The notes under the pieces are model-generated. The model made no database searches. It saw only the letters and a list, made by a program, of their open reading frames with translations, and had not been told where the DNA came from. A stretch of 64,000 nt of DNA, taken from the IMG/VR virus record IMGVR_UViG_3300035146_000036, one strand, 5' to 3'. The stretch is from a virus. The stretch's first letter is position 1. Each line of letters opens with the position of its first letter. This document shows, piece by piece, positions 45,131-62,993 of the stretch. The position numbers were made by a program, and so were the translations under genes.

Positions 45131-45306
45131 TTTTCTTTTTTGTATGAAAAAATGTCAATAAAGTACGCAATTTTTTCTATTTGAAATCATTGGGTTTTTT
45201 AAGGTACGCAATTTTTTCACGCAAAAAGTATCCATTCTGAAAAAAGTATACAGCAAAAAAACTAATAATTTCGCGTTTTGAAAGTTGGCACGCGTAATGC
45301 AACCTA

Positions 45307-45579
45307 TTGTTGGCAGTTGCTGATGAAAGGATGATAGATAAGATGAAAGCTGAAGAAATCATTAAAATTGAAAATCCTGTTTTCAGGATAAGATGTTCAG
45401 AAAAACAATTCAGCAAATTGACAGCTACTGCTATCAAGTTTGGCAGTAAAGCTGTGCTAAAGTCGACGGGTAGAACTGTTGAACATGAGATGTTTATTGT
45501 TTCGGCAATCAGACAGGAGACACTGTTTCGGATGAGAACTCATCAATCAACACTGTTACCTGTATCTATAATTCATTAA
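45307..45579 (+). CDS. Hypothetical protein (start uncertain)
   Basis: ORF in GC-richer island. Confidence 0.3.
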   Translation: MLAVADERMIDKMKAEEIIKIENPVFRIRCSEKQFSKLTATAIKFGSKAVLKSTGRTVEHEMFIVSAIRQETLFRMRTHQSTLLPVSIIH

Positions 45580-45619
45580 TCTCTTAGATATTAAGTAGTT
45601 GATGACGAAAGGATAAATT

Positions 45620-45814
45620 ATGAGTTATCAAAAAGGCGTTACGATATATTGTGACAATTTTATTGGCGAAGAAGAGAATCAGTGTTGTGCTTCTATTTCA
45701 ACACCGTATGCTGATGTCAGAGGGGCAAGGTCTTTTGCCCGAAAAAATGGATGGAAATGTGATGGAGAGTGGGATTATTGCCCACTCTGTAAGGAAGAAC
45801 TAAAGGTCGACTAA
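45620..45814 (+). CDS. Small Cys-rich (zinc-ribbon-like) protein
   Basis: ORF with C..CC...C..C pattern. Confidence 0.4.
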   Translation: MSYQKGVTIYCDNFIGEEENQCCASISTPYADVRGARSFARKNGWKCDGEWDYCPLCKEELKVD

Positions 45815-45863
45815 TAATTGACCGAAATAAGGCCGATTTACGGCCAGAAAAAGGAGTAAGAAG

Positions 45864-46346
45864 ATGAAAGAAGAAAAAATAATATGCCCATCTTGCGGGT
45901 ATGACAGTGAAGGATATGCATCGTATCTTCCAGAGTGTCCGCATTGTGGAGAGAAGAATCCGTATCCAAATCTTATACCGCATCACCGTATTGTCAATCT
46001 TACCCCCCATAAGGTAACGTATTGGGAACGGCTTGATGCTCAGGATCATCCGCATGTCGTGGAAGAATACCCTTCGGAAGGCATCGCAAGATGCCAAGAA
46101 AAAATCAATCAGATAGGCGTCTATTACGATGCCTATGGGTATGATGGTAAATCGGCGACACCGCTGATTTACGAAACGTCATACGGTGACATAGAGGGGC
46201 TTCCTGAGCCCATGCCAGGGGTACTATTTATTGTATCAAGGCTTGTTAAACAAGCCGTACCGTACAGAGATGATTGTGTAGTGCCGTGTATGGTACTACG
46301 AGACACACAAGGATGTGTTATAGGTTGTATGGGATTTTCTCTATGA
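45864..46346 (+). CDS. Zinc-ribbon protein
   Basis: CPSCG...CPHCG N-terminus; AAGGAG RBS. Confidence 0.45.
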   Translation: MKEEKIICPSCGYDSEGYASYLPECPHCGEKNPYPNLIPHHRIVNLTPHKVTYWERLDAQDHPHVVEEYPSEGIARCQEKINQIGVYYDAYGYDGKSATPLIYETSYGDIEGLPEPMPGVLFIVSRLVKQAVPYRDDCVVPCMVLRDTQGCVIGCMGFSL

Positions 46347-46357
46347 GGATTTTCTCT

Positions 46358-46576
46358 ATGAATATTAAAAAAAATGAATGCATGTTTTGTGGAGAAAGGA
46401 TTTTAGAAGGAGTATTCTGCTCAGAGCAATGCAAGAATTTAGCCATTTCTGAAGCTGAGGATATAGACAGGAGAATTTATTTTCTTTTCGGAAAAAAATC
46501 AAATTATTGTCAAAGAAAACTTACTAAGATGTTTGACGAGATGTCAACTAAAGAAGAAAGAGGAGAAGATCAATGA
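46358..46576 (+). CDS. Small zinc-binding protein (MNIKKNECMFCGER...)
   Basis: Start ATG lies in the second copy of a 15-bp tandem duplication; CxxC...C..C. Confidence 0.4.
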   Translation: MNIKKNECMFCGERILEGVFCSEQCKNLAISEAEDIDRRIYFLFGKKSNYCQRKLTKMFDEMSTKEERGEDQ

Positions 46577-47601
46577 AAAAAGTAGAGTTATCATGGAGTG
46601 AGGGTGATACAGATGTCATTATTTTGGTGGATGATGATCCGCTGAAAATTCTGACGTATGAATTTGACTCGGATGCCGTGCATGATTTTTGTATAGCAGG
46701 GCAACTATATTATCGGTCAAAATCTGGGTTATCTGGGGCGGGTTGGGTTCCTGCCAATGATGTCTTAAAGTTGGGATGGTATCGCGTAGACATTCCTAGG
46801 CAATCTCCCGTTAATGTTGCATCAATTGGGGATGGTCTTTATATGTGGATCCCAATTCGGGGTCACAAGGGGATAGATAAAAATTATCCAGTAGTTATAT
46901 CAGACCGGTTAGACAAAGTATGGTTTTTACCAGTGAATTTTGTGCAACGCAACATTTCTTCCATCATCCAAAGTCTCGATGTCGCAATGTCGAATGATTG
47001 TTTGACCGCAAAACAGATTCCATTTACTTGGCTTGTGCCTGAGCGACCACCATTGCTTGAAGTTCGACGCTTCGATACTAACGAAAATAACGAATTAGTG
47101 GATGTATCTTATGAGTGTACTTTATATACGATGGAATCTACTGCTTCAAGACCTTCAATTAGTAGATTTCTTAATTTGGAAGAATATACCATTCCTACTC
47201 ATCAATGGTTGGGAGAACTTGCTAGGCCGCAAACAACGTGGATGAAAAATTTAGGTATTTATCAAGTCTTAGATGACCAGTGGGTTGTAGTTGGAAAAGA
47301 AGGCTTGATAGAGCATACTCTTTCATCGGACCCTCGAATGATAGATGGCGGGGAGATGTGTCATGGGTGGGCATTCGAAGGCGATGGTTTAGTTTGGCGT
47401 AGTACTTTTGATGGTATAAACACTAATATTTATGCCATAAAAGAAATTCCTAGTAGCCGCATTTCTGATGTGCATGATGTGCAGAATGATAATGATGAGG
47501 AATATATAGCGCATGAAATTACCATTAGCGAATATCAGTGGAAAGTGATGACGTCACAGGATCGTCATGCCATGATGGATAAAAACTTAAAAAAAAGTTG
47601 A
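46573..47601 (+). CDS. Hypothetical protein (342 aa)
   Basis: ORF with 4-nt overlap to the upstream gene. Confidence 0.45.
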   Translation: MKKVELSWSEGDTDVIILVDDDPLKILTYEFDSDAVHDFCIAGQLYYRSKSGLSGAGWVPANDVLKLGWYRVDIPRQSPVNVASIGDGLYMWIPIRGHKGIDKNYPVVISDRLDKVWFLPVNFVQRNISSIIQSLDVAMSNDCLTAKQIPFTWLVPERPPLLEVRRFDTNENNELVDVSYECTLYTMESTASRPSISRFLNLEEYTIPTHQWLGELARPQTTWMKNLGIYQVLDDQWVVVGKEGLIEHTLSSDPRMIDGGEMCHGWAFEGDGLVWRSTFDGINTNIYAIKEIPSSRISDVHDVQNDNDEEYIAHEITISEYQWKVMTSQDRHAMMDKNLKKS

Positions 47602-47655
47602 CAAAGCATTTTTGAGGTCTTAAAATCAGTATAGATGCTCAACAAGATGTTGAGC
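47599..47655 (+). promoter_or_regulatory. Sigma70-type promoter (TTGACA-16-TAAAAT) followed by stem-loop CTCAACAAGATGTTGAG
   Basis: Near-identical copy at 49313-49369. Confidence 0.6.
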
Positions 47656-47670
47656 GAAAGGAGAAGAAAG

Positions 47671-47991
47671 ATGAAAAACCTGATAGGGTATGAGGCAATT
47701 GATTTCAAGCGTAGTAATTCAGATTCAGTGCTCTGCAAATATGCAGACCCCATAGAAGACGCGCGTTATGACATCTCAGTAGCAGATGCTGAGGAAATCG
47801 CCAGCGAAGACCCCAGTCTCATCTTTATCTATGTCAAGCCAACGGAATTTCTAGTTTATATGGATGCGCCTCGACATTGGGCTGTAGCCGCTGTCGATCT
47901 GGATGATGATTTGAGTTGGGCGCGAAATTGTAACGGGGTATTCAAAAACCCCAAAGACGCGGAAGCCCATGCTGCGCGATTGAATGGATAG
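47671..47991 (+). CDS. Hypothetical protein
   Basis: ATG after AAGGAG; ORF-track start at 47635 lies inside the stem-loop. Confidence 0.4.
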   Translation: MKNLIGYEAIDFKRSNSDSVLCKYADPIEDARYDISVADAEEIASEDPSLIFIYVKPTEFLVYMDAPRHWAVAAVDLDDDLSWARNCNGVFKNPKDAEAHAARLNG

Positions 47992-48075
47992 AATTGATCC
48001 CGTCTACCCGTTAGCAATGTCGGTGGAATGTCGGTGGAATGTAGGCCGATTCGGCCATAACAAAGGAGATAAACT

Positions 48076-48546
48076 ATGAAAATTTATGCAACAATGCCAA
48101 CATATAGCGTAGAAGAGGATTGGATTAAGGGTTTGCTACTATTCGGTTCAGATTACGCGCGTGCGTATCTGCGTGTGTATAAGAGTCGAGACGATAACTG
48201 GCACATGATAGGACATGAAGAAAAATCCTCTCTAATAGAAGAGAAAATGCCTTCTCCATCCGACGGCGGATGGCAGAATAAACCATATTTAGTTATGGCT
48301 CCTGATATTATGGCAGTGAAAAATGATGCGCTGGGACGAGTATGGCGAGCACATGAGGCGTATGAGAGTCGATCTCGTAATACGACGTTGGTTAGGTATC
48401 GAGGTGTCAGTAGCGATGTGTACGGCTACGAGTATGTCGAGCTTATAGTCGGCGAGAAATCATCATTCATAGATTTATCCATATGCTCAGAATGGTCCGA
48501 TGGCGATGTATCCTTTGAGGATATTATAGAGTTTTTATATCAATGA
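48076..48546 (+). CDS. Hypothetical protein
   Basis: ORF with AAGGAG RBS. Confidence 0.45.
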   Translation: MKIYATMPTYSVEEDWIKGLLLFGSDYARAYLRVYKSRDDNWHMIGHEEKSSLIEEKMPSPSDGGWQNKPYLVMAPDIMAVKNDALGRVWRAHEAYESRSRNTTLVRYRGVSSDVYGYEYVELIVGEKSSFIDLSICSEWSDGDVSFEDIIEFLYQ

Positions 48547-48589
48547 ACCAGATGATTAATTTTATTGGGATTGGGTAAATAAAAAGTAT

Positions 48590-49294
48590 TTGAAGATATT
48601 TTATTTTTTATTTATAATCTCTCTTATGAGAGAATTACTTGATCGATTAGAAGAAAAAATTGCAGATATCGAGGATTCTGGTCTTGGTGGAAAATATTTT
48701 GAAAAAATATTTGTAAAGGCGTTGAATCTAATCGGTATGGAATTTATTGCTAATATAGCAAGTGGACCAGGATGGGATATTCATACCAGAGGGGATAAAT
48801 GGTTGAAGTTGATATCTGATAAAGATGTAAATATTAAGGTTTGTGGAACTAAGTGGATGTTGTCTTCATCGGAGTTGGCAAAAATTTTGCCATGGGAAAA
48901 ATTACCGGATGATTATGACAGTTTAAAATACGAAAAAAAGATTAGGCGTATTTTTGCACAAAAAAAAGTATCACAAATATATTTTTTGAAGCCAAAAACT
49001 CTTGATATACAAAATCAAATTATAATGGCTACAGAAAATGAAGATATTGATATTCTTAACAAACTTGTTGTTAAGAAAAATTTTAGGATAGAAAAACTTG
49101 GTAGAGGGTATGAAATAAAAATTCTTGATAATGGAAAAAGAATTACATCTGTTGCCATTATAAAAGATGGAAAGGTTTTCATGAGGAGTGAAAAGCCACG
49201 TAGTATTGGAGGTACAAATACTGTTGCTTTTAGATCACCTACACCCAAAATCAGTAAAATATCTAGACCTATTACTAAAAAAGAAAAACTTTAG
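48590..49294 (+). CDS. Hypothetical protein (probable start at 48626, 8 nt after a TTGAAG-17-TATAAT promoter)
   Basis: ORF; promoter hexamers read directly. Confidence 0.4.
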   Translation: MKIFYFLFIISLMRELLDRLEEKIADIEDSGLGGKYFEKIFVKALNLIGMEFIANIASGPGWDIHTRGDKWLKLISDKDVNIKVCGTKWMLSSSELAKILPWEKLPDDYDSLKYEKKIRRIFAQKKVSQIYFLKPKTLDIQNQIIMATENEDIDILNKLVVKKNFRIEKLGRGYEIKILDNGKRITSVAIIKDGKVFMRSEKPRSIGGTNTVAFRSPTPKISKISRPITKKEKL

Positions 49295-49312
49295 AGAAAA
49301 CTTAAAAAAAAG

Positions 49313-49369
49313 TTGACAAACTATTTTTAATGTCTTAAAATCAATGTAGATACTCAACAAGATGTTGAG
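49313..49369 (+). promoter_or_regulatory. Sigma70-type promoter (TTGACA-17-TAAAAT) plus stem-loop, duplicate of 47599-47655
   Basis: About 50 nt nearly identical to the upstream copy. Confidence 0.6.
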
Positions 49370-49381
49370 GAGGAGACAATT

Positions 49382-51589
49382 ATGGTTATAAAAAACAAAT
49401 TTTCGAAACGTTGTGAGTGTTGTGGAGAGCAAGTTGGCGTGGGTGACGGTTTTGCTTTCGTTGAAAATGGTACTTGGCATACAGTTTGCAAATCAACAGC
49501 TTGTCATCGAAAACTTGGCGTAGACCAGAATAGAGATAATGTCCGTAAATTGACCGAGGATGGCAAGGTCATCATGGGGTATGACAAAAATGCTATTACT
49601 CTGTTGCGTTCTATGCCTGGGGCTCGATGGAATCCAGACGAAAAGCACTGGACAGTGAGTGTCAAGACTGAGGACTTGGATAGAGTCATCGAGATTGCTG
49701 ACCAACTAAAACTCGATGTTCCTGATAGTCTAAGGAAGCGTGCTTCAATCGGTACCGTAGCCTCTCAAGAAGCTGAAAAACGAGCTGAACGTGTCAGGGT
49801 TGACGGAAGTCCTCTTTATGATTTTCAGCGTGATGGAGTTAGATTTCTTGCTCTTCATAATCATGCGTTGATGGCTGATGATATGGGACTCGGGAAAACC
49901 GTTCAGGCTCTTGTTGCCATTCCTGAGAAATCAAGAGTTTTAGTTACTTGCCCTTCTGCTGTTAAATACAACTGGAGAGATGAGATTCAACTTTGGAGAC
50001 CAGATTATTCTATTAGGATAGTCAAGGGTAAAAAAGACGATAATATTGTCCCTAACGAGGGTGAGATAGTTATTGTCAATTATGATATTCTGCCCAAATG
50101 GTTGATGCCCACAATTGATAGTGGGAAAATAAATAAGAAGGGTGACCCGATTCTGGTTGCTGATATTCCATCAGACAAACGTTCTGGTTTGAGCGAGACA
50201 ATTGTTATTTTTGATGAAGGTCATCTTGCAAAAAATTACAAAGCTAAAAGGACACAAAAGGTTACACAATTATCAAAAAATGTTGCCAAGGTTTGGGTTT
50301 TGACTGGAACTCCGTTGATGAATCGACCATTTGATTTGTGGGGTGTTTTGTGTGCGTTTGGAATGTATCCTTTGGGTGGATTTAACAAGTTTGTTAATCT
50401 TTTCAATGGTTCATGTAGTAAGTACGGTGGGTATGAGTTTGGTCTTCCCACTCAGGAAGTTGTTGAGAGAATGAAGAGAGTTATGATTCGTAGACTCAAA
50501 AAAGACGTTCTCAAAGACCTTCCTCCTAAGACTTATCAGAGGATTGAGGTTGATTGTTCTAGTAGGTCTCTCAATAAGGAATTGAAAGAACTTGCTCAAG
50601 AAATTGCCGATGCTCAAGGAATCAATTTTGATGCAGATGATTTTTCAATGTTGGACCTTGATACAATCCCTGATTTTAATGCTTTTTCTCGAGTAAGGGC
50701 TTTGTTGGCTAAAGCTAAAATTCCTGCTATGTTGAATTTAATTGAAGAGCATGAGGAAACTGATACGCCAGTCGTTGTTTTTTCTGCTCATAGATCCCCT
50801 ATAGATGAGTTGGCTAGTCGTGATGGATGGGACGTAATAACCGGTGATACGTCTGCAGAGGATAGACAGAATGTCGTAAGGAGGTTTCAATGTGGCGAAT
50901 TGAAGGGTGTTGGTTTGACAATCAAGGCTGGGGGTGTTGGTCTTACTTTGACAAGGGCTTCTAATGCGATTTTTGTTGATCTTGACTGGACACCCTCTTG
51001 GAATATTCAGGCAGAGGACAGAATTTGCAGGATAGGTCAGAAGAGTAACAATGTGACTATCAAAAGGCTGGTTTCTTCTCATCCTCTTGATATTCACATT
51101 CAAAATATTATAGAGTACAAAGTCAAACTTGCCTATATGGCTCTTGATAATGATTATGTTTTCAAGGGTGGCCAAAAAGTTTCTAGTAAAAAGTCTGATT
51201 TTGTAGATCTCAAAGAGGAGAGTGATGAAGAGCTCTCGGAAAGGATTCGCAAAGCGGAGTATGAAGCCAATCGAGAGTATTACTCTCAGAAAATCAGGAG
51301 AGTGGCTGATCGGGAATCTGAGCGGGTTTCTCATGTGCCAGAACCTGAACTAACCGAGGAAAGGAAGAGCCTACTGAGGGGCGCTCTAGGCCATCTGTGT
51401 AGTGTTTGTGATGGGGCTTTTCTGAAGGATGGAATGGGATTCAATAAGCCTGATGCCTGTATTGGGCATTGGATGAATTCTATAGATATTGAAACGGCTG
51501 AAGATGATATTTATAGAGTGCTGGAAAGAATTCTTGTGAGATATCGAAAGACTCAACTTGCGGGTAAGTTTGATGGAATTTGGAGTTGA
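49382..51589 (+). CDS. SNF2-family helicase/ATPase with N-terminal Cys-rich zinc-finger-like region
   Basis: DMGLGKTVQ (motif I), IFDEGHLAKN (motif II), LTGTPLMNRPFDLW (III), GGVGLTLT (V), QAEDRICRIGQ (VI). Confidence 0.8.
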   Translation: MVIKNKFSKRCECCGEQVGVGDGFAFVENGTWHTVCKSTACHRKLGVDQNRDNVRKLTEDGKVIMGYDKNAITLLRSMPGARWNPDEKHWTVSVKTEDLDRVIEIADQLKLDVPDSLRKRASIGTVASQEAEKRAERVRVDGSPLYDFQRDGVRFLALHNHALMADDMGLGKTVQALVAIPEKSRVLVTCPSAVKYNWRDEIQLWRPDYSIRIVKGKKDDNIVPNEGEIVIVNYDILPKWLMPTIDSGKINKKGDPILVADIPSDKRSGLSETIVIFDEGHLAKNYKAKRTQKVTQLSKNVAKVWVLTGTPLMNRPFDLWGVLCAFGMYPLGGFNKFVNLFNGSCSKYGGYEFGLPTQEVVERMKRVMIRRLKKDVLKDLPPKTYQRIEVDCSSRSLNKELKELAQEIADAQGINFDADDFSMLDLDTIPDFNAFSRVRALLAKAKIPAMLNLIEEHEETDTPVVVFSAHRSPIDELASRDGWDVITGDTSAEDRQNVVRRFQCGELKGVGLTIKAGGVGLTLTRASNAIFVDLDWTPSWNIQAEDRICRIGQKSNNVTIKRLVSSHPLDIHIQNIIEYKVKLAYMALDNDYVFKGGQKVSSKKSDFVDLKEESDEELSERIRKAEYEANREYYSQKIRRVADRESERVSHVPEPELTEERKSLLRGALGHLCSVCDGAFLKDGMGFNKPDACIGHWMNSIDIETAEDDIYRVLERILVRYRKTQLAGKFDGIWS

Positions 51590-51592
51590 ATA

Positions 51593-52156
51593 ATGAAAAT
51601 TGATTTAAGTGGAAGAAATTTGCGAGGAGCCATTTTGGAAGGGGCTGACCTCGAAGGAGCCAATCTAAAAGGGGCTGACCTTGAAGGTGCCAACCTCAAA
51701 GATGCCTACCTAAAAGGAGCCAATCTAAAAAAAGCCAACCTTGAAGGGGCCAATCTAAAAGGGGCCTTCCTCGAAGGGGCTGACCTCGAAGGGGTTAAGT
51801 TCAAAGAAGCCAACCTCAAAGGGACCAATCTTGAGGGGGCCATCCTTAAATGGGCCAACCTAGAAGGTGCCAAACTCAAAGAAGCCAACCTAAAATTGGT
51901 CAACTTTGAAGGGGCAGACCTTAAAGATGCTAACCTTGAAGGGGCCAATTTTGAAAGTGCCAACCTCTACTTGGCCAATCTTGAAAGTGCCAACCTTAAA
52001 GGGGCCAAGTTTAAAAGGGCTTACTTGGAAGGAGTCAACTTTAAAGGGGCTTACCTGGAAGGGGCTGAATTGGAAAAGACAGATTTAAGTGGGATAAATT
52101 TAGAAGGGGCCTATCTCAAAGGGTCCAACCTCGAAGGAAGAAAAAATGAAAATTGA
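51593..52156 (+). CDS. Pentapeptide-repeat protein 1
   Basis: A[DN]L[EK]GA repeats throughout; starts [13 protein letters not shown]. Confidence 0.75.
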
Positions 52157-52784
52157 TTTAAGTGGAAGAAATTTGCGAGGAGCCAACTTCGAAGGAATTG
52201 ATTTGCGAGGTGCTAAGCTAGAAAGGACCAACCTTGAAGAAGCTAACCTCGAAGGAGCCAACCTAAAAGGGGCCAAACTCGAATGGACATACCTAAGATG
52301 TGCCAATCTTGAAGGGGCAGACCTTGAAAAGGCAGACTTTACAGGGGCCAATCTTGAAGGTGCTAACCTTGAAGGTACTGACCTCAAAGGGGCAGACCTA
52401 AGAGGTGCCAATCTCGAAAGGGTCAACCTCAAAATGGCCAACATCGAAGATGCCAACCTAAGATATGCCAATTTTAAAGGGTCAGACTTTACAGGGGCCA
52501 ACCTTGAAGGGGCAGACCTTGAAATGGCAGACCTCAAAAGGGCCAATTTAGAAATGGCAGACCTAAAAAGGGCCAATCTAGAAGGGGCCATCCTTAAATG
52601 TGCCAACCTTGAAGGAGTCAATCTAGAAGGAGCCAATCTAGAAGGAGCCAACCTCGAAGGGGCCAAAATTAAAGGGGCCTACCTCAAAGGAGCCAATCTT
52701 AAAGGAGCCAATCTTAAAGAGGTCGATCTAGAAGAGGTCGATCTAGAAGGGGCCAACCTCGAAGGGATAAAAAATGAAAATTGA
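52146..52784 (+). CDS. Pentapeptide-repeat protein 2
   Basis: Tandem paralog with same N-terminus; start overlaps the upstream gene. Confidence 0.75.
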
Positions 52785-53286
52785 TTTAAATGGAAGAAAT
52801 TTGCGGGGAGCCATCCTCAAAGGGGTCAACTTCGAAGGAGCCAACCTAAAAGGGGCTGACCTCGAAGGGGTTGACCTCGAAGAAGCTAACCTCAAAGGGG
52901 CCAATCTCAAAGGGGCCAATCTTGAAAGTGCCAACCTTGAAAGTGCCAATCTTGAAAGTGCCAACCTTAAAGGGGCCAATCTTAAAGGGGTCAACCTAAA
53001 AGGGGTTGGCCTCGAAGGGGTTGACCTAAAAGGGGTTGACCTCGAAGATGCCAATCTAGAATGGGCCTACCTTAAAGATGCCAATCTTGAAGGGGCCAAT
53101 CTCAAAGATGCCAACATCAAATGGGCTTACCTTGAAGGGGTCAATCTCAAAGATGCCAATCTTGAAAGTGCCAATCTTGAAAGTGCCAACCTTAAAGGGG
53201 CCAATCTTGAAAGTGCCAACCTTAAAGAGGTCAAGTTCAAATGGGCTGGCTTCGAAGGGGCCAACCTCGAAGGAACCAAGATATAA
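52774..53286 (+). CDS. Pentapeptide-repeat protein 3
   Basis: Tandem paralog. Confidence 0.75.
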
Positions 53287-53634
53287 AAATAAATATACTA
53301 AGTAGAGGAGAGATATTATGAAAAAGAAAAGATATCCTGAACCAACTATGCCTAAGCCTGATTTGGAGCAAATTGAGAGATGGGGTTTTTCTTCGGTTTG
53401 TGAAGCAACAGATGGATGTGTAGTGGAACCTGATGGTATATGTCCACATGGATATCCATCGTGGTTATTGTATCTTGGATATATATAGACAGCGAACTCG
53501 AGTTCGCAAAGAAGAAGATTAATATGGATATTTCTAAAATAATGATTGATACGACATATGAATCTATTATTTAGTTATTTGTATGAAAGATATGGATAGG
53601 AAATTATTGGAATATTTTTTATTTAAAAAAGTAC

Positions 53635-54906: not shown

Positions 54907-55923
54907 ATGGAAAAGATTTTATGGGTTTTTGTATATTTTATATCTTTGGGGTGTGCTGCTGAACCAGATGCATTTTTGGACGTCGATGCTGGATATATTT
55001 GGATAGATTCTGCTTATATTTACAGTAACAGTAATGTTTTTGATACTGGAAATGAGTATGTTGATGCAGATGCCGATTCTGATAGTGATACAGATGCCGA
55101 TACAGACGCTGATGCGGACACCGATACTGATACAGATGCAGATACTGATGCAGATTCTGATACAGATACTGATACAGATAGCGATTCTAATACAGATAGC
55201 GATTCTGATACAGATAGCGATTCTGATATGTATATAGATACTGATACAGATATCAATATTGAATGTGAAAGTGAATGTCTAAGTAGTTGTTCTTCTTTAG
55301 GTGGAATTCCTGTTAGTGGTACATGTCCTAGAGGTTTGAAATGTTGTAATATGAATGGGTATGTGGATAGTGATGCTGATACAGACTCAGATGCGGACAC
55401 GGACACGGATGCAGACTCAGATTCAGACTCAGATGCGGACACGGATGCAGACTCAGATACTGATACGGATACTGATTTTGATACGGATTTTTATGGTTTA
55501 ATGGATACTGAAACAGAAGAATCAGTATGTTTGGATAATGGATATGAATTCCCTGATGATTCTGGGATATGTTGGTATTATAGGTCAGATCTTCCAGAGG
55601 AGAGGTCAGATTGTATAAGTGTATGTCATAGTTTTGGCCTTGAATATTCTGATGATACTGAAAATGTGATTAAGGATAATCATAAGAATTGTATATCTAT
55701 AGTCCAAGGATTGGGGTTAGAAGGTGAAACTGGATATTGGTATGCTTCGATTGATTCTTGTGGAATAGGAGACCGTACATGGAATGTTGGAGCAGCTGGG
55801 TGTACATATCACAATGATTCTAGTGATATGGTTTTTCATCAGATACTTGTGGTTGTTTGTAATGGTGGGGCAATCATGTCAAATCGTAGGTCAGTAGATC
55901 CTAGATTATGTGCTTGTGAGTAA
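54907..55923 (+). CDS. Secreted/lipoprotein-like protein with Asp-dipeptide (DA/DS/DT) repeat blocks and Cys-rich modules
   Basis: N-terminal hydrophobic signal ending ISLGCAA; two (D-A/S/T)n blocks; 6-Cys block C-x3-C-x3-C-x11-C-x5-CC. Confidence 0.55.
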
Positions 55924-57104: not shown

Positions 57105-59993
57105 ATGAAAAATGAAGTTGTTAAAGTAAAATTTAATGGTAATGAAATTGTAGTTTTTTTAGAAGAAGAAGATGTTTGGGTTTCTGTTTGGAGTGTTTGT
57201 GATGGAATTGGGATTGATAAAACGGGTCAAAAAAGAAGATTATTAACTTACGACATGGTGACATGGAAGACCTATGAAGATTCAAATGGAATTTTGAAAG
57301 ATGTTTTTTTAATTAATTTGAATGCACTTAATGATTGGTTGTATTCTATTAATAGATGGAGAATATATCCATTATCAAGGAAGAAATTGGATATATATTG
57401 TAGTGGATTATTTGATGAAATAAAAAAAAATATTGATTTTATTAATACTAACGATGATGAGAATATATACGAAATTATTGATATAGAGTTTTTAGATAAT
57501 AAGATTCAATTTATTATAGATGAATACGAAAATATATGGATTTCTGTTGAACAAATATGTGAGCATTTAAATATTGATTTGGATTGGTATATGCAAGCAT
57601 TGGTTGATTTAGCAGATTTAGCAGATCTAGGATATAATGTTTGTACGTTTAAAGTCTTTGATTCAGATGGTGAAAAATATGATGTTTTTATGATTCATAT
57701 TAATTCTGTAAAAGCATGGTTAAATGCAATACGTTTTAATGATATTAAATTTGAATTTAGGGGGATATTAACTAGATATAGAGAAGAAATAGTTGATTTT
57801 GTAATGAATGCTATTGTTGATTTTGATACTATTTCAGTATTTGGAAATGAAACTATTAATAACAATATGGTTTCTGATGAAAACAAAACAATAGAGAATG
57901 TTATAGAGAAGGAGGATACTCAAAATATTGAGTTAGGAAGAAGGATAGATGATAATAAATATGAAGCTATAGAGATTTATTTTTATGGTGGAATCATTGA
58001 ATTGGTTGAAGATGAAAATAATAATATTTGGATAAATGTTAAAAAAATATGTGATATGTTTGGAATAAGTTATTCTGAGCAACATATTAAACTTGAAAGT
58101 ATAGATTGGAAAAATTGGGTAGTTTGGAAGATTGTTAATAAGCAATTTATGATTAATTTAGATTGTTTTAAAGATTGGTTGTTAAAGATTGAACCTAATA
58201 TAGTTAGTTTAAAATCAAGACATATATTGGTGAAGTATCAGAAAGAGATTGATTCAGATATAATAAGAAAAGTATTTCGTGAAGAAATAGAGGGGGGAAA
58301 TAAAAATAATAAAGTTGATAAAGCGGATTTTTATGTTTCAAAAACAAAAAAGATAAAAAAATTAAAAAAAGATATAGATGATAATTATAAGTGTTATGTC
58401 GTAGATGTTGGTTCTAATAATAAAAAGGTTGAAGTTGTTAGAGATGGAAATGGTGGTATTTGGATATATACAAAGAGAATTTGTAAGATATTAGGTATTG
58501 ATTATAGAAATCATATGATGAAGTTAGCAAGTAAGGATTGGGCAAATTGGAAGATTATTTTTGCAGTTCATAATAATGGTAAGAAACATAAATGGTTTAT
58601 GCTTCATATAGATTGTTTTGATAAATGGATAAATAGTATTAAGAAAAATATTTTAAAAACAAAAGATAATATGTCATGGGGTGATTTTGTTGAAATAAAA
58701 AAGTATAGTTATATGATAAAGAAGGGTGTCGATAGAGCAATAAGAGAAGAAAATACAACTGTTGTTGAAGAGCATTTTGAAGGAGAAGAATTAGTTGGTA
58801 GAACTGTATATGAGACTGATGAAGAGATAGATAAATCAAAGGATGTTGTGAAATGCGACACCCTTGAAGAAGATGAAGAGCAGAGAGATGGGGGGGTGAA
58901 ACGCCCCCTCATCGAAAAAGAAGATGAAGAATACAAGGATGTCGTGAAATGCGACACCCTTGAAGAAGATAAGGAAGAAAAGATGAAGGATGAGAAGATG
59001 AGTAAAGATATAATGAATGATATAGTAAAAATGTTTGAGTATGAAGGTGAACCGTTGACGGCTCTTACTTACAAAGGACAGCCAGCAGTCATTGCTAAAG
59101 AGTTTGGAAAGTTTTTAGGATATGCAAAAGATGGATCAAAATTGGTAAGTCTTATCAATGATGAATGGAAAAAGTCTTTTGAGTCAGGAAAGCATTTTGT
59201 TGTTTTGAAGGATAAAGAACTTAAACAATTTAAGGAACTTATGAAAGTAAACCCGTCATACGGGTTTAGTCGAGCACCCCATATAATGCTTCTTTTTAGA
59301 AAAGGAATGTATAAGACAGCTTTCAAGAGTGGGAAGGAAAGAGCAGAGCCGTTAATAGATTTTGTTGTAGACGAGGTGTTTCCTCAGTTGGAGAAGTACG
59401 GAAGCTATGACCCTAATAGGATAGCAGATTCCGGGTTAGTGAAGAAGGGAGTTTGGATACCTGAGATGTCGTCTGAAGCTCTTGAAGTACTGCTGAGAGA
59501 GAGGAAGGGGCGTGAGCTTGCCGAGAAAGATAGAGATGGGGCTATAGTATTAGTTAGGGAGCAGAAAGAGAAAATAGCAGAGATGAAGGAGGATATTAAG
59601 GAGTTTCGAGCAAGAGAGGGAGGAATAACTATAGAGGAGTTTGCACGTGTAGTATGGATTGGTGGTGTTAAGTACAATAGAGATCAGATGTATGCTCTTT
59701 TGAGGGAATTAGGTTTTTTAATTGAATGTGGTGTAGGTTATAATAAGCCACGTAAAAAATATGTTGATGACAAAAAATGGTTTGATACACAGATAAGAAT
59801 AGGTAGTGATGGTTATATAAGGAGAAATGGAATTGCATTGATTTTTCCGGAAGGTGAGGATGGAGTGATTAAAGAGATGAGGAGACATCCTGAATTTTTT
59901 GGTAAAGTTATTAAGCATAGGGATAGAAAATATATAGGTGGTGAGCAAACATCTTTTGATTGGGTTGATAATAAGAATAAGACGGTAAAGTAA
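57105..59993 (+). CDS. Large antirepressor-like protein with about five tandem Bro-N/KilA-N-like modules and a C-terminal ANT/KilAC-like region
   Basis: Recurrent module [IV]W[IV]x[VT]xxIC..[LF]GI[DS] (DVWVSVWSVCDGIGID; NIWISVEQICEHLNID; NIWINVKKICDMFGIS; GIWIYTKRICKILGID); KDVVKCDTLEED duplicated. Confidence 0.5.
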   Translation: MKNEVVKVKFNGNEIVVFLEEEDVWVSVWSVCDGIGIDKTGQKRRLLTYDMVTWKTYEDSNGILKDVFLINLNALNDWLYSINRWRIYPLSRKKLDIYCSGLFDEIKKNIDFINTNDDENIYEIIDIEFLDNKIQFIIDEYENIWISVEQICEHLNIDLDWYMQALVDLADLADLGYNVCTFKVFDSDGEKYDVFMIHINSVKAWLNAIRFNDIKFEFRGILTRYREEIVDFVMNAIVDFDTISVFGNETINNNMVSDENKTIENVIEKEDTQNIELGRRIDDNKYEAIEIYFYGGIIELVEDENNNIWINVKKICDMFGISYSEQHIKLESIDWKNWVVWKIVNKQFMINLDCFKDWLLKIEPNIVSLKSRHILVKYQKEIDSDIIRKVFREEIEGGNKNNKVDKADFYVSKTKKIKKLKKDIDDNYKCYVVDVGSNNKKVEVVRDGNGGIWIYTKRICKILGIDYRNHMMKLASKDWANWKIIFAVHNNGKKHKWFMLHIDCFDKWINSIKKNILKTKDNMSWGDFVEIKKYSYMIKKGVDRAIREENTTVVEEHFEGEELVGRTVYETDEEIDKSKDVVKCDTLEEDEEQRDGGVKRPLIEKEDEEYKDVVKCDTLEEDKEEKMKDEKMSKDIMNDIVKMFEYEGEPLTALTYKGQPAVIAKEFGKFLGYAKDGSKLVSLINDEWKKSFESGKHFVVLKDKELKQFKELMKVNPSYGFSRAPHIMLLFRKGMYKTAFKSGKERAEPLIDFVVDEVFPQLEKYGSYDPNRIADSGLVKKGVWIPEMSSEALEVLLRERKGRELAEKDRDGAIVLVREQKEKIAEMKEDIKEFRAREGGITIEEFARVVWIGGVKYNRDQMYALLRELGFLIECGVGYNKPRKKYVDDKKWFDTQIRIGSDGYIRRNGIALIFPEGEDGVIKEMRRHPEFFGKVIKHRDRKYIGGEQTSFDWVDNKNKTVK

Positions 59994-60318: not shown

Positions 60319-60857
60319 TGAAAAAGAATGAAGAAAATGTGGAGATAGAAGTACTTGAGTTGTCTCCTGAAGATTCACTTATTTTTGCAGAAGCCATATT
60401 GAATCCAAGAGAGCCATCTGATGTTTTGAGACGAGATTTTGATCTTTACAAAAAGATGGTAATTAGTGACCAGGATGATATAGGTGAAACGAACTCGAGT
60501 TCGCCAAAAAAAGGATTATGGATGTTAAAGGATATTGTTACACCAAATGATGTGGTTGATATATTAAATAAGGTTTTAGCTATAGATTCATATGCAATAA
60601 ATCAACTTATTAATATGCGTGTTATTTGTAATAAGGATTTAGCAGATATACCAAATATACAAGTTGGAAAGAGACCAGAGGGTGGATATAGAGTAGGCAT
60701 ATTGGGTATTTTGAATGGTGTATTTGGTAAAGATGATACAACTGGATTTGGTTGTATATGTGCTAATATAAATAAAGAGACAGGTTTGGTTGAGAGATTT
60801 TCAATTTTGAATGAAAATGATTTTGAAGATATAAAAAACAATAATACGATTGCCTGA
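60318..60857 (+). CDS. Hypothetical protein
   Basis: ORF; contains a copy of the CGAACTCGAGTTCG palindrome. Confidence 0.4.
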   Translation: MKKNEENVEIEVLELSPEDSLIFAEAILNPREPSDVLRRDFDLYKKMVISDQDDIGETNSSSPKKGLWMLKDIVTPNDVVDILNKVLAIDSYAINQLINMRVICNKDLADIPNIQVGKRPEGGYRVGILGILNGVFGKDDTTGFGCICANINKETGLVERFSILNENDFEDIKNNNTIA

Positions 60858-62470: not shown

Positions 62471-62546
62471 TGCGGAGTAGAGCAGTAGTTTAGCTCGCTG
62501 GTTTCATACGCCAGGTCAGTCAAGGGTTCGAATCCCTTCTCCGCAA
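62471..62546 (+). tRNA. tRNA, anticodon CAU (Met, or Ile2 if lysidine-modified)
   Basis: Cloverleaf folded by hand: acceptor TGCGGAG/CTCCGCA, D-stem GAGC/GCTC, anticodon stem CTGGT/GCCAG with loop TTCATAC, T-arm AAGGG-TTCGAAT-CCCTT; variable loop looks 7 nt. Confidence 0.6.
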
Positions 62547-62559
62547 AAATTTAGTTTAA

Positions 62560-62631
62560 GCCGATGTAACTTAATGGTAGAGTAACTGACCTGTAATCAG
62601 TTTGTTGGAGGTTCAAGTCCTCTCATCGGCT
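62560..62631 (+). tRNA. tRNA, anticodon UGU (Thr) with unusual C33
   Basis: Acceptor GCCGATG/CATCGGC, D-stem ACTT/GAGT, anticodon stem ACTGA/TCAGT with loop CCTGTAA, T-arm GGAGG-TTCAAGT-CCTCT. Confidence 0.6.
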
Positions 62632-62641
62632 TTAGGAGGTA

Positions 62642-62902
62642 TTGATTATTATCATGTTATTAGAACCTGGTTCAGTTGCTTTTGTGATAAGTAGTGATTA
62701 TGTATATGGTGGTTATCCTGTAGTTGTTGTTGAAGAAGATACTAGTAGAGAAAATTGTTTTATTGTAAGGAAAAAAATTGGTTTAATATGGTATAATCAA
62801 GTCGTTTCTAGAGATATTCTTAGGGAGTTATCTTTTGATGAGGTAGAGAAATATAAAGAAGATTTGGATTTTTTGAACATGTCGCTTCAAAAGAAGCTTT
62901 GA
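62642..62902 (+). CDS. Hypothetical small protein between tRNAs
   Basis: ORF. Confidence 0.3.
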   Translation: MIIIMLLEPGSVAFVISSDYVYGGYPVVVVEEDTSRENCFIVRKKIGLIWYNQVVSRDILRELSFDEVEKYKEDLDFLNMSLQKKL

Positions 62903-62920
62903 TTGAAACGTAATAAATAG

Positions 62921-62993
62921 TCGCCATTAGCTCAATTGGTTAGAGCGCTCGCCTTATAAGCGAGTGACCGAGGTTCAAATCCTTGATGGCGAA
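62921..62993 (+). tRNA. tRNA, anticodon UAU (Ile, AUA-decoding)
   Basis: Acceptor TCGCCAT/ATGGCGA (7 perfect bp), D-arm GCTC-AATTGGTTA-GAGC, anticodon stem CTCGC/GCGAG with loop CTTATAA, T-arm CGAGG-TTCAAAT-CCTTG. Confidence 0.7.

What the first reader, a model, noticed from the sequence alone, without database searches (positions are those of the whole stretch)
51593..53286. Three tandem pentapeptide-repeat protein genes (possible DNA-mimic anti-defence or topoisomerase-protection genes)
Three consecutive paralogs of 187, 212 and 170 aa each begin MKIDL(S/N)GRNLRGA and consist almost entirely of A(D/N)L(E/K)GA pentapeptide repeats. Each start overlaps the preceding stop (…NENatgaaaattgattta). 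Pentapeptide-repeat proteins (Qnr, MfpA, AlbG) fold into DNA-mimicking quadrilateral beta-helices that bind gyrase. In a phage early region, three tandem copies directly after an SNF2 ATPase suggest DNA mimicry. That could serve for anti-restriction or anti-defence, or for modulating host topoisomerases.
Basis: partly seen in the sequence, partly recalled or inferred. Interest (0 to 1): 0.7.

Follow-up and report, generated by a model that had tools for sequence, protein, structure and literature searches.

The report
Three tandem phage pentapeptide-repeat genes
An uncultured tailed phage carries three back-to-back genes for small rod-shaped "pentapeptide-repeat" proteins whose number and position differ between close relatives, which marks them as accessory genes, but their target is unknown and such proteins are already known in about 1% of sequenced phages.

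Summary
Window 51593-53286 (+) holds three paralogous genes of 187, 212 and 170 aa. Each is an unbroken run of 34-42 pentapeptide repeats (Pfam PF00805, E 1e-53 to 1e-80). AlphaFold models of two of them (pLDDT 96.5 and 94.1) are helix-free, loop-free quadrilateral beta-helices. Genes 2 and 3 overlap the preceding stop by 11 nt. All three follow an SNF2 helicase and lie behind a consensus sigma-70-type promoter.

Close relatives of the phage carry only one copy at this site, or a fourth paralog at another site. All copies share a 30-32 nt 5' leader that is 97-100% identical. The orthologue pair evolves under purifying selection but faster than the helicase (dN/dS 0.28 against 0.12).

The gyrase/DNA-mimic reading is not established. 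Curated Qnr and MfpA models score far below cut-off, and the C-terminal dimerisation helix and the Qnr loops are absent. Net charge (-3, -12, -7) resembles MfpA and QnrB1 but is far from Ocr, and one orthologue is basic.

My best reading is that these are early, copy-number-variable accessory rods that bind a host DNA-handling protein. The target cannot be identified here. This is a new member of a known kind, of moderate interest.

The parts
49297..49369 (+). Promoter/5'UTR module: A-tract, TTGACA (49313), 17-nt spacer, TAAAAT (to 49341) and a 5'UTR hairpin CTCAAC...GTTGAG. It is the likely promoter of the SNF2-PRP operon.
   Evidence: 11/12 match to the sigma-70 consensus, one of only six such sites in 64 kb, all on the + strand and all at 47.6-62.1 kb; 90% identical 73-nt copy at 47582-47654; hairpin -8.4 kcal/mol, z -3.2.
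49382..51589 (+). SNF2-family helicase/ATPase (735 aa) with an N-terminal Cys-rich region and a weak HARP-like match. First gene of the operon.
   Evidence: PF00176 2e-32, PF00271 6e-14, HARP 2.7e-4 (below cut-off); phrog_62 DNA helicase 1e-88; only generic SNF2 matches to defence helicases.
51593..52156 (+). PRP1, 187 aa, 37 pentapeptide units, net charge -3. Starts 3 nt after the SNF2 stop.
   Evidence: AF2 model pLDDT 94.1: continuous beta-solenoid, no helix, last 4 residues disordered. Orthologue in L014/L011 is 93% identical in nt; dN/dS 0.28.
52146..52784 (+). PRP2, 212 aa, 42 units, net charge -12, with one strongly acidic face (13 acidic and 2 basic surface residues). Start overlaps the PRP1 stop by 11 nt.
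   Evidence: AF2 model pLDDT 96.5, pTM 0.89, no helix or loop. Foldseek best hit is the synthetic consensus PRP 4yfo, TM 0.89.
52774..53286 (+). PRP3, 170 aa, 34 units, net charge -7. Start overlaps the PRP2 stop by 11 nt.
   Evidence: In the 99.4%-identical strain L008 it carries 6 substitutions, five of them clustered at 52923-52935, which replace an ES unit by a KG unit.
51593..51624 (+). Conserved AT-rich 5' leader (copies also at 52146-52177 and 52774-52805). It is 97-100% identical in all paralogs at all sites, while the gene bodies are 60-80% identical.
   Evidence: The junction RNA is unstructured (z +0.38). SD-like AAGGA/GGAG lies 6-8 nt upstream of each ATG (read).
53318..53488 (+). 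56-aa Cys/His-containing ORF that always follows the last PRP. Probably the last gene of the operon.
   Evidence: The same ORF follows the single PRP in L014 and L011. No family match.
53492..53507 (+). Perfect palindrome GCGAACTCGAGTTCGC just after the 56-aa ORF. It may be the operon-end hairpin, although no T-run follows.
   Evidence: D12, second copy at about 60490.: -8.2 kcal/mol, z -2.65.

Best explanation
The region encodes three translationally coupled paralogs of a minimal pentapeptide-repeat protein. Each has no signal peptide, no extra domain, no helix caps and no loops. Each folds into a straight quadrilateral beta-helix rod of about 8.5-10.5 coils, roughly 40-50 A long and about as wide as duplex DNA. 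The surface is densely charged with a Glu/Lys ladder.

The three genes are co-transcribed with an SNF2 helicase from a host-type (sigma-70-like) promoter in the non-structural part of an uncultured myovirus genome.

Shown: the gene structure, the family, the predicted fold, the promoter motif, purifying selection, and variation in copy number and position among close relatives.

Inferred: they are early accessory (host-interaction) proteins. They would act in the cytoplasm as rigid DNA-sized decoys or binding platforms that titrate or modulate a host DNA-handling protein, either a type II topoisomerase or a DNA-targeting defence enzyme. The paralog expansion would supply dosage and/or different surface specificities. 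The target itself cannot be named from sequence.
For: Family and fold: PF00805 at E 1e-53 to 1e-80. AF2 pLDDT 96.5 and 94.1 with a strand every 5 residues and no helix. Foldseek TM 0.89 to a consensus PRP solenoid, with all top hits PRPs.

Real genes: SD-like sites 6-8 nt upstream of each ATG (read from the sequences); PRP1 and PRP2 proteins 100% identical in strain L008, with one substitution in each gene; dN/dS 0.28 for PRP1 against its L014 orthologue.

Early/host-transcribed operon: the six best sigma-70-like promoters are confined to 47.6-62.1 kb on the + strand, and one lies 40 nt upstream of SNF2. The spacer is 3 nt and the overlaps are 11 nt.

Accessory character: the window and L008 have 3 copies. 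L011 and L014 have 1 copy between the same SNF2 and the same 56-aa ORF. L012 and L013 have a fourth paralog at the equivalent of window ~45333, flanked in L012 by a 49-nt direct repeat. dN of PRP1 is twice that of SNF2. There are repeat-unit conversions between strains. The neighbours are ORFans.

DNA-decoy plausibility: net charge and pI are in the range of MfpA and QnrB1, and PRP2 has one face with net -11. The only well-established biochemistry for stand-alone cytoplasmic PRPs of this size is gyrase binding as a DNA T-segment mimic (PMC10886550). PRPs in cultured phages also sit among small early-type ORFs (PMC12282133; phage L early-left orf232).
Against: There is no direct evidence for any target. 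The features that define the gyrase-binding PRPs are absent: the C-terminal helix dimer, the Qnr loops, and family-level sequence scores. The PRP1 orthologue in L014 is net positive (+3, pI 8.8), which fits DNA mimicry poorly. PRP1 and PRP3 have no acidic face. McbG and QnrB do not block BREX, so a PRP shape alone is not anti-defence activity (PMC7261183). There is no PADLOC match and no functionally named phage family match. Sequence similarity to other PRPs is consensus-driven (48-67% to unrelated proteins, similar to the 50-62% between the paralogs), so homology transfers no function. Copy-number differences rest on short-read metagenome contigs, although each arrangement is seen twice.
Confidence: 0.4

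Rival explanations
1. These are true Qnr/MfpA-type topoisomerase-interacting PRPs. They bind host gyrase or topo IV as T-segment mimics to protect or modulate it during infection.
For: Size (170-212 aa), cytoplasmic location and net charge (-3, -12, -7) match MfpA (-5) and QnrB1 (-6). They share the same fold class. Other phages are known to target gyrase with small proteins (Igy, Gip; PMC10886550).
Against: Qnr and MfpA NCBIfam scores are 55-78 bits against cut-offs of 240 and 360. There is no C-terminal dimerisation helix and no loops A/B (defining features per PMC10886550 and PMC8145042). Foldseek TM to QnrB1, MfpA and AlbG is only 0.28-0.57, against 0.89 to a plain consensus solenoid. The L014 orthologue is basic.
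Confidence: 0.15
2. These are protein-binding scaffolds unrelated to DNA mimicry. The uncapped beta-helix ends bind a partner by beta-strand augmentation, or stack end to end into homo- or hetero-oligomeric rods, and the target is some other host or phage protein.
For: Both termini lack the alpha-helix caps present in 13 of 16 solved PRPs. An uncapped PRP edge is the binding site in SV2C-BoNT/A (PMC8145042). The N-terminal coil [13 protein letters not shown] is conserved in all paralogs. Translational coupling would favour fixed stoichiometry. Most PRPs have non-topoisomerase or unknown roles.
Against: The N-terminal conservation extends to synonymous sites, so it may reflect DNA/RNA-level constraint or gene conversion rather than a protein interface. 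Relatives manage with a single copy. No oligomer prediction could be run.
Confidence: 0.2
3. The PRPs are regulators or partners of the co-transcribed SNF2 helicase, for example DNA-shaped autoinhibitors or loaders.
For: They are in the same operon, with a 3-nt gap after SNF2. The SNF2-PRP adjacency is kept in L011, L014 and L008.
Against: The nearest SNF2 homologue outside the lineage (L001, 53% identity) and six more distant ones have no PRP within the fetched flanks. PRP4 in L012 and L013 lies about 4 kb upstream of the SNF2 position, next to unrelated genes.
Confidence: 0.1
4. This is a largely functionless, self-expanding repeat array: 15-nt unit slippage and gene duplication that is tolerated rather than selected.
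For: There is a 15-nt DNA periodicity with a founder-like unit GAAGGGGCCAACCTN. Codon bias is extreme (GGG 61%, GCC 74%, against 13% and 4% elsewhere). Repeat-unit indels and conversions occur between strains.
Against: All reading frames are intact, with perfect register over 113 units. dN/dS is 0.28. Structural positions (A at i-2, L/F at i) are conserved while surface positions vary. Start sites and SD-like motifs are conserved. A PRP is present in every relative examined.
Confidence: 0.05
5. The three ORFs are joined into longer polypeptides by programmed +1 ribosomal frameshifting at the conserved A-rich junction (AGA AAA AAT GAA).
For: Each gene is exactly +1 relative to the previous one. 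Both junctions share AAAAAATGAAAATTGA. A +1 slip on AAA-A would read ...K-MKIDL and continue the solenoid (read from the sequence).
Against: There is no stimulatory structure (z +0.38) and no rare A-site codon. A -1 slip gives an immediate TGA. Each ORF has its own ATG and SD-like motif. PRP1 and PRP4 use the same leader without any upstream PRP. Overlapping stop/start is the ordinary signature of translational coupling.
Confidence: 0.03

Closest known systems
Uncharacterised pentapeptide-repeat proteins of cultured phages (Caulobacter RW/RLK gp016, Rheinheimera Barba gp041/gp043, Mycobacterium phages such as Bruin gp54, Staphylococcus Twort-like phages, Listeria P100-like CKA15_017, P22-like phage L orf232)
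   Same: Same Pfam family and fold. They are found in 481-482 of 50,697 phage records and in many BFVD entries. They lie among small hypothetical genes in non-structural regions. Barba phages also have two PRP-type genes close together. Phage L orf232 is in the early-left operon and shows a 15-bp repeat indel between strains. Function is unknown in all.
   Different: All are below 60% identical, and the similarity is consensus-driven. Most carry extra non-repeat N- or C-terminal parts (for example RW gp016, a 1071-nt gene). A three-gene array with overlapping stop/start and a shared, near-identical 5' leader was not seen in the examples inspected.
Np275/Np276 of Nostoc punctiforme (PDB 2J8I, 2J8K)
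   Same: They are adjacent genes encoding short, nearly pure PRPs with uncapped ends, interpreted as a split or duplicated PRP (PMC8145042). They are among the best natural sequence and structure matches.
   Different: The Nostoc pair is cyanobacterial and chromosomal, has an N-terminal helix cap on Np275, has an in-frame intergenic repeat (a split gene), and has no shared leader. Here each gene is a complete unit in a different frame.
Topoisomerase-interacting PRPs: Qnr, MfpA, AlbG, McbG, EfsQnr
   Same: Stand-alone cytoplasmic PRPs of 180-220 aa with the same fold class and similar net charge.
   Different: Those proteins dimerise head-to-head through a C-terminal alpha-helix, and Qnr and AlbG have functional loops. 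Here there is no helix, no loops, and curated family scores are 3-6 times below cut-off.
Synthetic consensus PRP solenoids (beta1 series, PDB 4YFO/4YC5)
   Same: They are the best sequence match (E 3e-44) and structure match (TM 0.89, rmsd 2.5 A), showing that the phage proteins are close to an idealised repeat.
   Different: The designed proteins borrow the MfpA C-terminal cap (one search shows this shared segment). The phage proteins have none.
Phage DNA-mimic anti-restriction proteins (Ocr, ArdA, Arn)
   Same: They are early phage or plasmid proteins proposed to imitate DNA.
   Different: The folds are unrelated. Ocr carries -28 over 117 aa (-0.24 per residue), against -0.016 to -0.057 here.

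Membership tests
Pentapeptide repeat protein superfamily (PF00805, Rfr fold) | At least 8 contiguous pentapeptide repeats of consensus A(D/N)LXX | tested here: met
   There are 37, 42 and 34 uninterrupted units. Position i-2 is A in 27/37, 30/42 and 23/34 units; position i is L/F in at least 32 units of each protein. PF00805 E 1e-53 to 1e-80.
Pentapeptide repeat protein superfamily (PF00805, Rfr fold) | Right-handed quadrilateral beta-helix, four repeats per coil | tested here: met
   This is predicted, not solved. AF2 pLDDT is 96.5 (PRP2) and 94.1 (PRP1), with one strand residue every 5 positions. All top Foldseek PDB hits are PRPs, best TM 0.89. PRP3 was not modelled.
Topoisomerase-interacting PRPs (Qnr / MfpA / AlbG / McbG) | Sequence membership by curated family HMM | tested here: not met
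   NCBIfam Qnr NF033086 scores 61-78 bits against a cut-off of 240. MfpA NF000349 scores 55-78 against 360. All Qnr subfamily models score 37-84 against 425-500.
Topoisomerase-interacting PRPs (Qnr / MfpA / AlbG / McbG) | C-terminal alpha-helix mediating a head-to-head dimer | tested here: not met
   DSSP of both models shows no helix. The repeats run to within 2-7 residues of the C-terminus. The feature is as described in PMC10886550 and PMC8145042.
Topoisomerase-interacting PRPs (Qnr / MfpA / AlbG / McbG) | Surface loops interrupting the helix (Qnr loops A and B; AlbG loop) | tested here: not met
   The 5-residue register is unbroken, and neither model has any low-confidence or looped segment.
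Topoisomerase-interacting PRPs (Qnr / MfpA / AlbG / McbG) | Predominantly electronegative, DNA-like surface | tested here: inconclusive
   Net charges of -3, -12 and -7 are comparable to MfpA (-5) and QnrB1 (-6), whose sequences were verified against the PDB. Only PRP2 has a clearly acidic face, and the L014 orthologue is +3. No electrostatic surface could be computed.
Topoisomerase-interacting PRPs (Qnr / MfpA / AlbG / McbG) | Binds gyrase or topo IV and protects it from poisons | not testable with these tools
   This needs biochemistry, and the host and its gyrase are unknown.
DNA-mimic anti-restriction proteins (Ocr/ArdA type) | Very high density of surface carboxylates imitating the phosphate backbone | tested here: not met
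   Ocr has -0.24 net charge per residue, with 34 acidic and 6 basic residues. The PRPs have -0.016 to -0.057, with acidic and basic residues nearly balanced.
DNA-mimic anti-restriction proteins (Ocr/ArdA type) | Inhibits R-M, BREX or another DNA-targeting defence | not testable with these tools
   There is no assay. The PRPs McbG and QnrB did not inhibit BREX (PMC7261183).
Known anti-phage defence components (PADLOC-DB) | Match to a defence-system protein model | tested here: not met
   No PADLOC family matches at E<=1e-3 for any of the three PRPs.

The most novel reading that the evidence does not exclude
The cap-less PRPs are modules of a self-assembling rod. The conserved N-terminal coil of one paralog would dock on the open C-terminal edge of the previous one, giving a PRP1-PRP2-PRP3 hetero-rod of about 135 A, roughly 40 bp of DNA. 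The 1:1:1 stoichiometry would be set by translational coupling. The number and order of modules would be reshuffled between phage strains by recombination at the shared 30-32 nt leader, giving a modular, length-tunable DNA-shaped decoy against host defences or topoisomerases.
Probability: 0.07. Interest if true: 0.7.

Novelty: new member of a known kind. Interest (0 to 1): 0.35.

Why it matters
Pentapeptide-repeat proteins are abundant: about 39,000 sequences are catalogued, 1.4% of them viral (PMC8145042). They occur in about 1% of sequenced phages, yet I found no phage PRP with an experimentally known role.

This locus offers a clean natural experiment. It holds minimal, domain-free PRPs, and closely related phage strains carry one or three copies at one site, or a further paralog at a second site. 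That makes a host-interaction role testable by comparing strains or swapping cassettes. It also gives near-ideal, cap-less beta-solenoids for structural study.

If a DNA-decoy or counter-defence role were shown, it would assign a function to a widespread class of phage "hypothetical" genes. As it stands, the finding is a well-documented but unsurprising example of a known family.

Tried and rejected
1. Megablast of 49382-53500 against 50,697 phage records gave no match, so no annotated relative is available.

2. PRP2 against IMG/VR via the search for related loci gave no relative. The leader pattern in IMG/VR gave 0 hits.

3. The homologue search against 5.8 billion proteins returned 5,935 generic PRPs. 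All of the 120 listed were longer than the query (214-371 aa), and the ten inspected carried extra domains. None was an orthologue, so no function can be transferred.

4. Synteny via SNF2 homologues (L001-L007) showed no PRPs nearby.

5. I first argued that the proteins are "not acidic, therefore not DNA mimics". I dropped this after the control showed that MfpA and QnrB1 have the same net charge. It holds only against Ocr-type mimicry.

6. The NCBIfam "Alr5209 family" score passes its cut-off for PRP1 and PRP2 (176 and 152 bits against 125). However, it does so by summing 3-4 partial matches to a 113-position repeat model, so I rejected it as a repeat artefact rather than orthology.

7. Programmed frameshift fusion: a -1 slip hits TGA at once, and a +1 slip has no supporting structure. 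I kept it only as a 3% rival.

8. G-quadruplex idea, prompted by GGGG at 23 per kb in the region against 1.8 per kb elsewhere: only two long-loop motifs were found in the region, so I did not pursue it.

9. Horizontal transfer as the sole cause of the odd codon usage: the neighbouring island genes have raised GC3 (0.34-0.48) but not the GGG/GCC bias. The bias is therefore mainly a founder-repeat effect.

10. Six literature searches found no experimentally characterised phage PRP.

11. Host identification failed. One relative is binned in a MAG labelled "uncultured archaeon", but the promoters look bacterial.
Full report
OBSERVATION

Written in blocks of five, each protein keeps an unbroken pentapeptide register from Met1 to the C-terminus, with 37, 42 and 34 full units. 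Ala sits at i-2, Asn/Asp at i-1, Leu/Phe at i, Glu/Lys at i+1 (about 90% of units) and Gly at i+2 (about 60%). Pfam PF00805 matches at E 2.6e-76, 2e-80 and 7.9e-53.

The 32-nt leader ATGAAAATTGATTTAARTGGAAGAAATTTGCG occurs three times, against zero expected by chance. PRP2 and PRP3 start 11 nt before the preceding stop (ATGAAAATTGA), and each gene is +1 in frame relative to the one before. PRP1 starts 3 nt after the stop of the SNF2 gene and does not overlap it, which is a small correction to the finding. SD-like AAGGA/GGAG lies 6-8 nt upstream of each ATG, and the junction RNA is unstructured. This is the ordinary signature of translational coupling. The long antisense and off-frame ORFs across the region are artefacts of the stop-free repeat.

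FOLD

AlphaFold2 models of PRP2 (pLDDT 96.5, pTM 0.89) and PRP1 (pLDDT 94.1) are continuous beta-solenoids with one strand residue every five positions. They have no helix and no loop, and only the last four residues (KNEN) are disordered. PRP3 was not modelled.

Foldseek against the PDB returns PRPs throughout the top of the list. The best match is a synthetic consensus solenoid (4yfo, TM 0.89, rmsd 2.5 A), followed by HetL and Np275/276. QnrB1, MfpA and AlbG align at TM 0.28-0.57. The sequence search of the PDB gives the same order. Four units per coil gives 8.5-10.5 coils. With the established rise of about 4.8 A per coil for this fold, the rods are roughly 40-50 A long.

CONTEXT

The window is a tailed-phage genome segment with all genes on the + strand. 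It has a tail sheath (phrog_23, 2e-58), a tape-measure-like protein, a 962-aa Ant/Bro-N/P22_AR_N protein and three tRNAs. It has no DNA match among cultured phages, and its sheath is at most 33% identical to any of them.

Upstream of the PRPs lies an SNF2-family helicase (PF00176 2e-32, Helicase_C 6e-14). The six best sigma-70-type promoters in the 64 kb (TTGACA, 16-18 nt, TAnnnT with at most one mismatch) are all on the + strand and all between 47.6 and 62.1 kb. None lies in the 1-47 kb structural part. One of them (49313-49341) belongs to a 73-nt module with an A-tract and a 5'UTR hairpin. This module is 90% identical to the module at 47582-47654 and lies 40 nt upstream of SNF2. No comparable promoter or terminator separates SNF2, the three PRPs and a conserved 56-aa ORF (53318-53488). 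These five genes are therefore most simply one operon read by host RNA polymerase. This supports, but does not prove, early or middle expression.

COMPOSITION

The PRP genes have GC3 of 0.41-0.47, against 0.12-0.26 in most of the window. They sit in a compositional island from 45.8 to 53.3 kb with GC3 of 0.34-0.48. Their extreme codon bias (Gly GGG 61%, Ala GCC 74%, Asn AAC 48%) is not shared by the other island genes (GGG 22%, GCC 18%). It matches a 15-nt DNA repeat, GAAGGGGCCAACCTN. The bias is therefore mainly inherited from an amplified founder unit, on top of a possibly acquired module. The nearest SNF2 homologue is on a 46.5% GC jumbo-phage contig.

RELATIVES AND DYNAMICS

This is the main new information.

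- The exact PRP2 protein is encoded on a JGI contig (L008) that is 99.4% identical to the window over 11.6 kb. There PRP1 and PRP2 are identical in protein. PRP3 has six substitutions, five of them within 13 nt, which replace one ES unit by a KG unit. This looks like a repeat-unit conversion.
- A scan of metagenome contigs for the leader found four more contigs.
- In L014 (10.7 kb) and L011, which come from two samples, the same SNF2 gene (95% aa identity) is followed by a single 170-aa PRP and then by the same 56-aa ORF. That PRP is the orthologue of PRP1: 93% nt identity over the first 506 nt, with a different C-terminus.
- In L012 and L013 a fourth paralog (about 221 aa in L012; the gene is truncated by the contig end in L013) lies at the equivalent of window ~45333, at the head of the non-structural region. 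In L012 it replaces a 90-aa ORF, is flanked by a 49-nt direct repeat of the local 5'UTR, and is followed by a GC-rich hairpin.

Across all paralogs and sites, the first 30 nt are 97-100% identical, including synonymous positions. Identity then drops to 60-80%.

Between the window and L014, PRP1 has dN 0.067, dS 0.241 and dN/dS 0.28. SNF2 has dN 0.031, dS 0.261 and dN/dS 0.12. The PRPs are thus constrained, which means they are functional, but they change faster than their neighbour.

The paralogs are only 50-62% identical in protein, no closer than unrelated consensus-type PRPs (48-67%). The duplication therefore predates the strain split, and the one-copy form may be a deletion. Each arrangement is seen in two independent contigs. 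They are nevertheless short-read assemblies of repetitive DNA, so long reads would be needed for certainty.

TESTING THE PROPOSED FUNCTION

The defining features of the topoisomerase-interacting PRPs are a C-terminal helix that makes a head-to-head dimer, functional loops (Qnr, AlbG), and an electronegative surface (PMC10886550, PMC8145042). The helix and loops are absent here. Curated NCBIfam models for Qnr and MfpA score 55-78 bits against cut-offs of 240 and 360.

Charge needed a control. I verified the MfpA, QnrB1 and Ocr sequences against the PDB and computed net charges:

- MfpA: -5
- QnrB1: -6
- Ocr: -28
- PRP1, PRP2, PRP3: -3, -12, -7
- PRP4 (L012): -10
- Single-copy orthologue (L014): +3

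Net charge therefore does not separate these proteins from Qnr/MfpA. It does separate them clearly from Ocr-type mimics. The basic orthologue argues against DNA mimicry as a general property.

Assigning units to the four faces shows one strongly acidic face in PRP2 (13 acidic and 2 basic residues). The faces of PRP1 and PRP3 are near-neutral Glu/Lys ladders.

PADLOC has no match. The PHROG matches are all "unknown function". McbG and QnrB do not inhibit BREX (PMC7261183). Six literature searches found phage PRPs only as annotations: the Listeria CKA15_017 operon, phage L early-left orf232 with a 15-bp repeat indel, and a Nitrosomonas phage "SmQnr". None had an assay.

Linkage to SNF2 is lineage-specific. 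The 53%-identical homologue on a 392-kb contig (L001) and six more distant ones have no PRP in their flanks, and PRP4 lies elsewhere.

WHAT IT MOST LIKELY IS

Shown: three real, translationally coupled genes for minimal, cap-less PRP beta-helices, in a host-promoter-driven operon of the non-structural region. They are under purifying selection, and their copy number and position vary among near-identical phages.

Inferred: these properties are those of accessory host-interaction genes (take-over or counter-defence). The rigid, DNA-width, highly charged rod suggests binding or titration of a host DNA-handling protein. I put this at about 0.4.

The rivals, with my estimated probabilities, are:

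- a specific Qnr/MfpA-like gyrase role (0.15);
- a non-DNA scaffold that uses the open beta-edges, as SV2C does with BoNT/A, or that stacks end to end (0.2);
- regulation of the adjacent SNF2 (0.1);
- a tolerated repeat expansion (0.05);
- frameshift fusion (0.03).

The lack of caps at both ends is unusual among solved PRPs, 13 of 16 of which have helix caps. Together with the conserved N-terminal coil, it motivates the most novel reading that remains possible, a modular hetero-rod. That reading is untested, because only monomer prediction was available.

NOVELTY AND VERDICT

PRPs occur in 481-482 of 50,697 phage records and in many BFVD entries. Adjacent PRP genes are known (Np275/Np276, and the two Barba phage PRP-type genes). 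This is therefore a new member of a known kind. Its useful extras are a tandem, coupled, leader-sharing array and natural copy-number variants. Interest is 0.35.

Noticed in passing
window 45800-53300: A compositional island. Genes here have GC3 of 0.34-0.48, against 0.12-0.26 in the rest of the window (48590-49294 is an exception at 0.21). This suggests the SNF2-PRP operon and the genes upstream of it were acquired from a GC-richer phage. The nearest SNF2 homologue is on a 46.5% GC contig.
   Followed up: partly
window 47582-47654 and 49297-49369; also 53635, 54011, 54812, 62102: A family of near-consensus sigma-70-type promoters (AAAAAAGTTGACAAA, 16-18 nt, TAnnAT/TATATT), all on the + strand and confined to 47.6-62 kb. 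Two of them lie in a 73-nt module that is 90% identical and carries a 5'UTR hairpin. None lies in the structural half of the window.
   Followed up: partly
L012 1910-2789 (- strand) compared with window 45220-45600: A fourth PRP paralog behaves like a cassette. It replaces a 90-aa ORF, is flanked by a 49-nt direct repeat of the upstream 5'UTR (window 45284-45332), and is followed by a GC-rich hairpin (CCGACCCCCCCCCGC...GCGGGCGGGTTGG) that is foreign to this AT-rich genome.
   Followed up: partly
window 54907-55923 (+): A 338-aa protein with a hydrophobic N-terminus, two long Asp-Thr/Asp-Ser/Asp-Ala repeat tracts (12/18-nt DNA period) and Cys-rich segments. It has no significant family match, and its antisense frame is also open.
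   Followed up: no
window 57105-59993 (+): A very large (962 aa) anti-repressor-like protein, with P22_AR_N matching in 4 stretches (2e-48) plus a Bro-N domain and several Ant PHROGs.
   Followed up: no
window 62471-62993 (+): A cluster of three tRNA genes: Met(cat), Thr(tgt) and Ile(tat).
   Followed up: no
L001 7914-11318: The closest SNF2 homologue (53% identity, on a 392-kb IMG/VR contig) is 1134 aa. It carries an insertion of about 400 aa immediately after the Walker-A GLGK motif. The insertion ends ...ILTHN|T, which looks like an intein. This was read from the sequence only and not tested against domain models.
   Followed up: no
L015 (CAYUTF010000016.1): A contig encoding an 82%-identical relative of the 579-aa protein at window 134-1873 is binned in a MAG titled "uncultured archaeon". 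The bacterial-type promoters and SD sites in the window argue for a bacterial host, so this is probably a binning artefact. The host remains unknown.
   Followed up: no
window 134-1873 and 1883-4354: The two large genes at the head of the structural module (579 and 823 aa), at the positions expected for a terminase and a portal, have no PHROG match at E<=1e-3. Relatives of the first exist in IMG/VR at 76-85% identity. The lineage is far from cultured phages.
   Followed up: partly
window 53492-53507 and about 60489-60504: The perfect 16-nt palindrome GCGAACTCGAGTTCGC occurs twice, each time within a conserved 29-nt context and just after a gene end. It may be a transcript-end or processing hairpin, but no T-run follows it.
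   Followed up: partly
window 51593-53286: GGGG runs occur at 23 per kb on the coding strand, against 1.8 per kb elsewhere. GGGGCC occurs 19 times in the region and never elsewhere in the window. CCCC is absent from the region. Every E-G codon pair (GAAGG) also makes an internal SD-like motif.
   Followed up: partly
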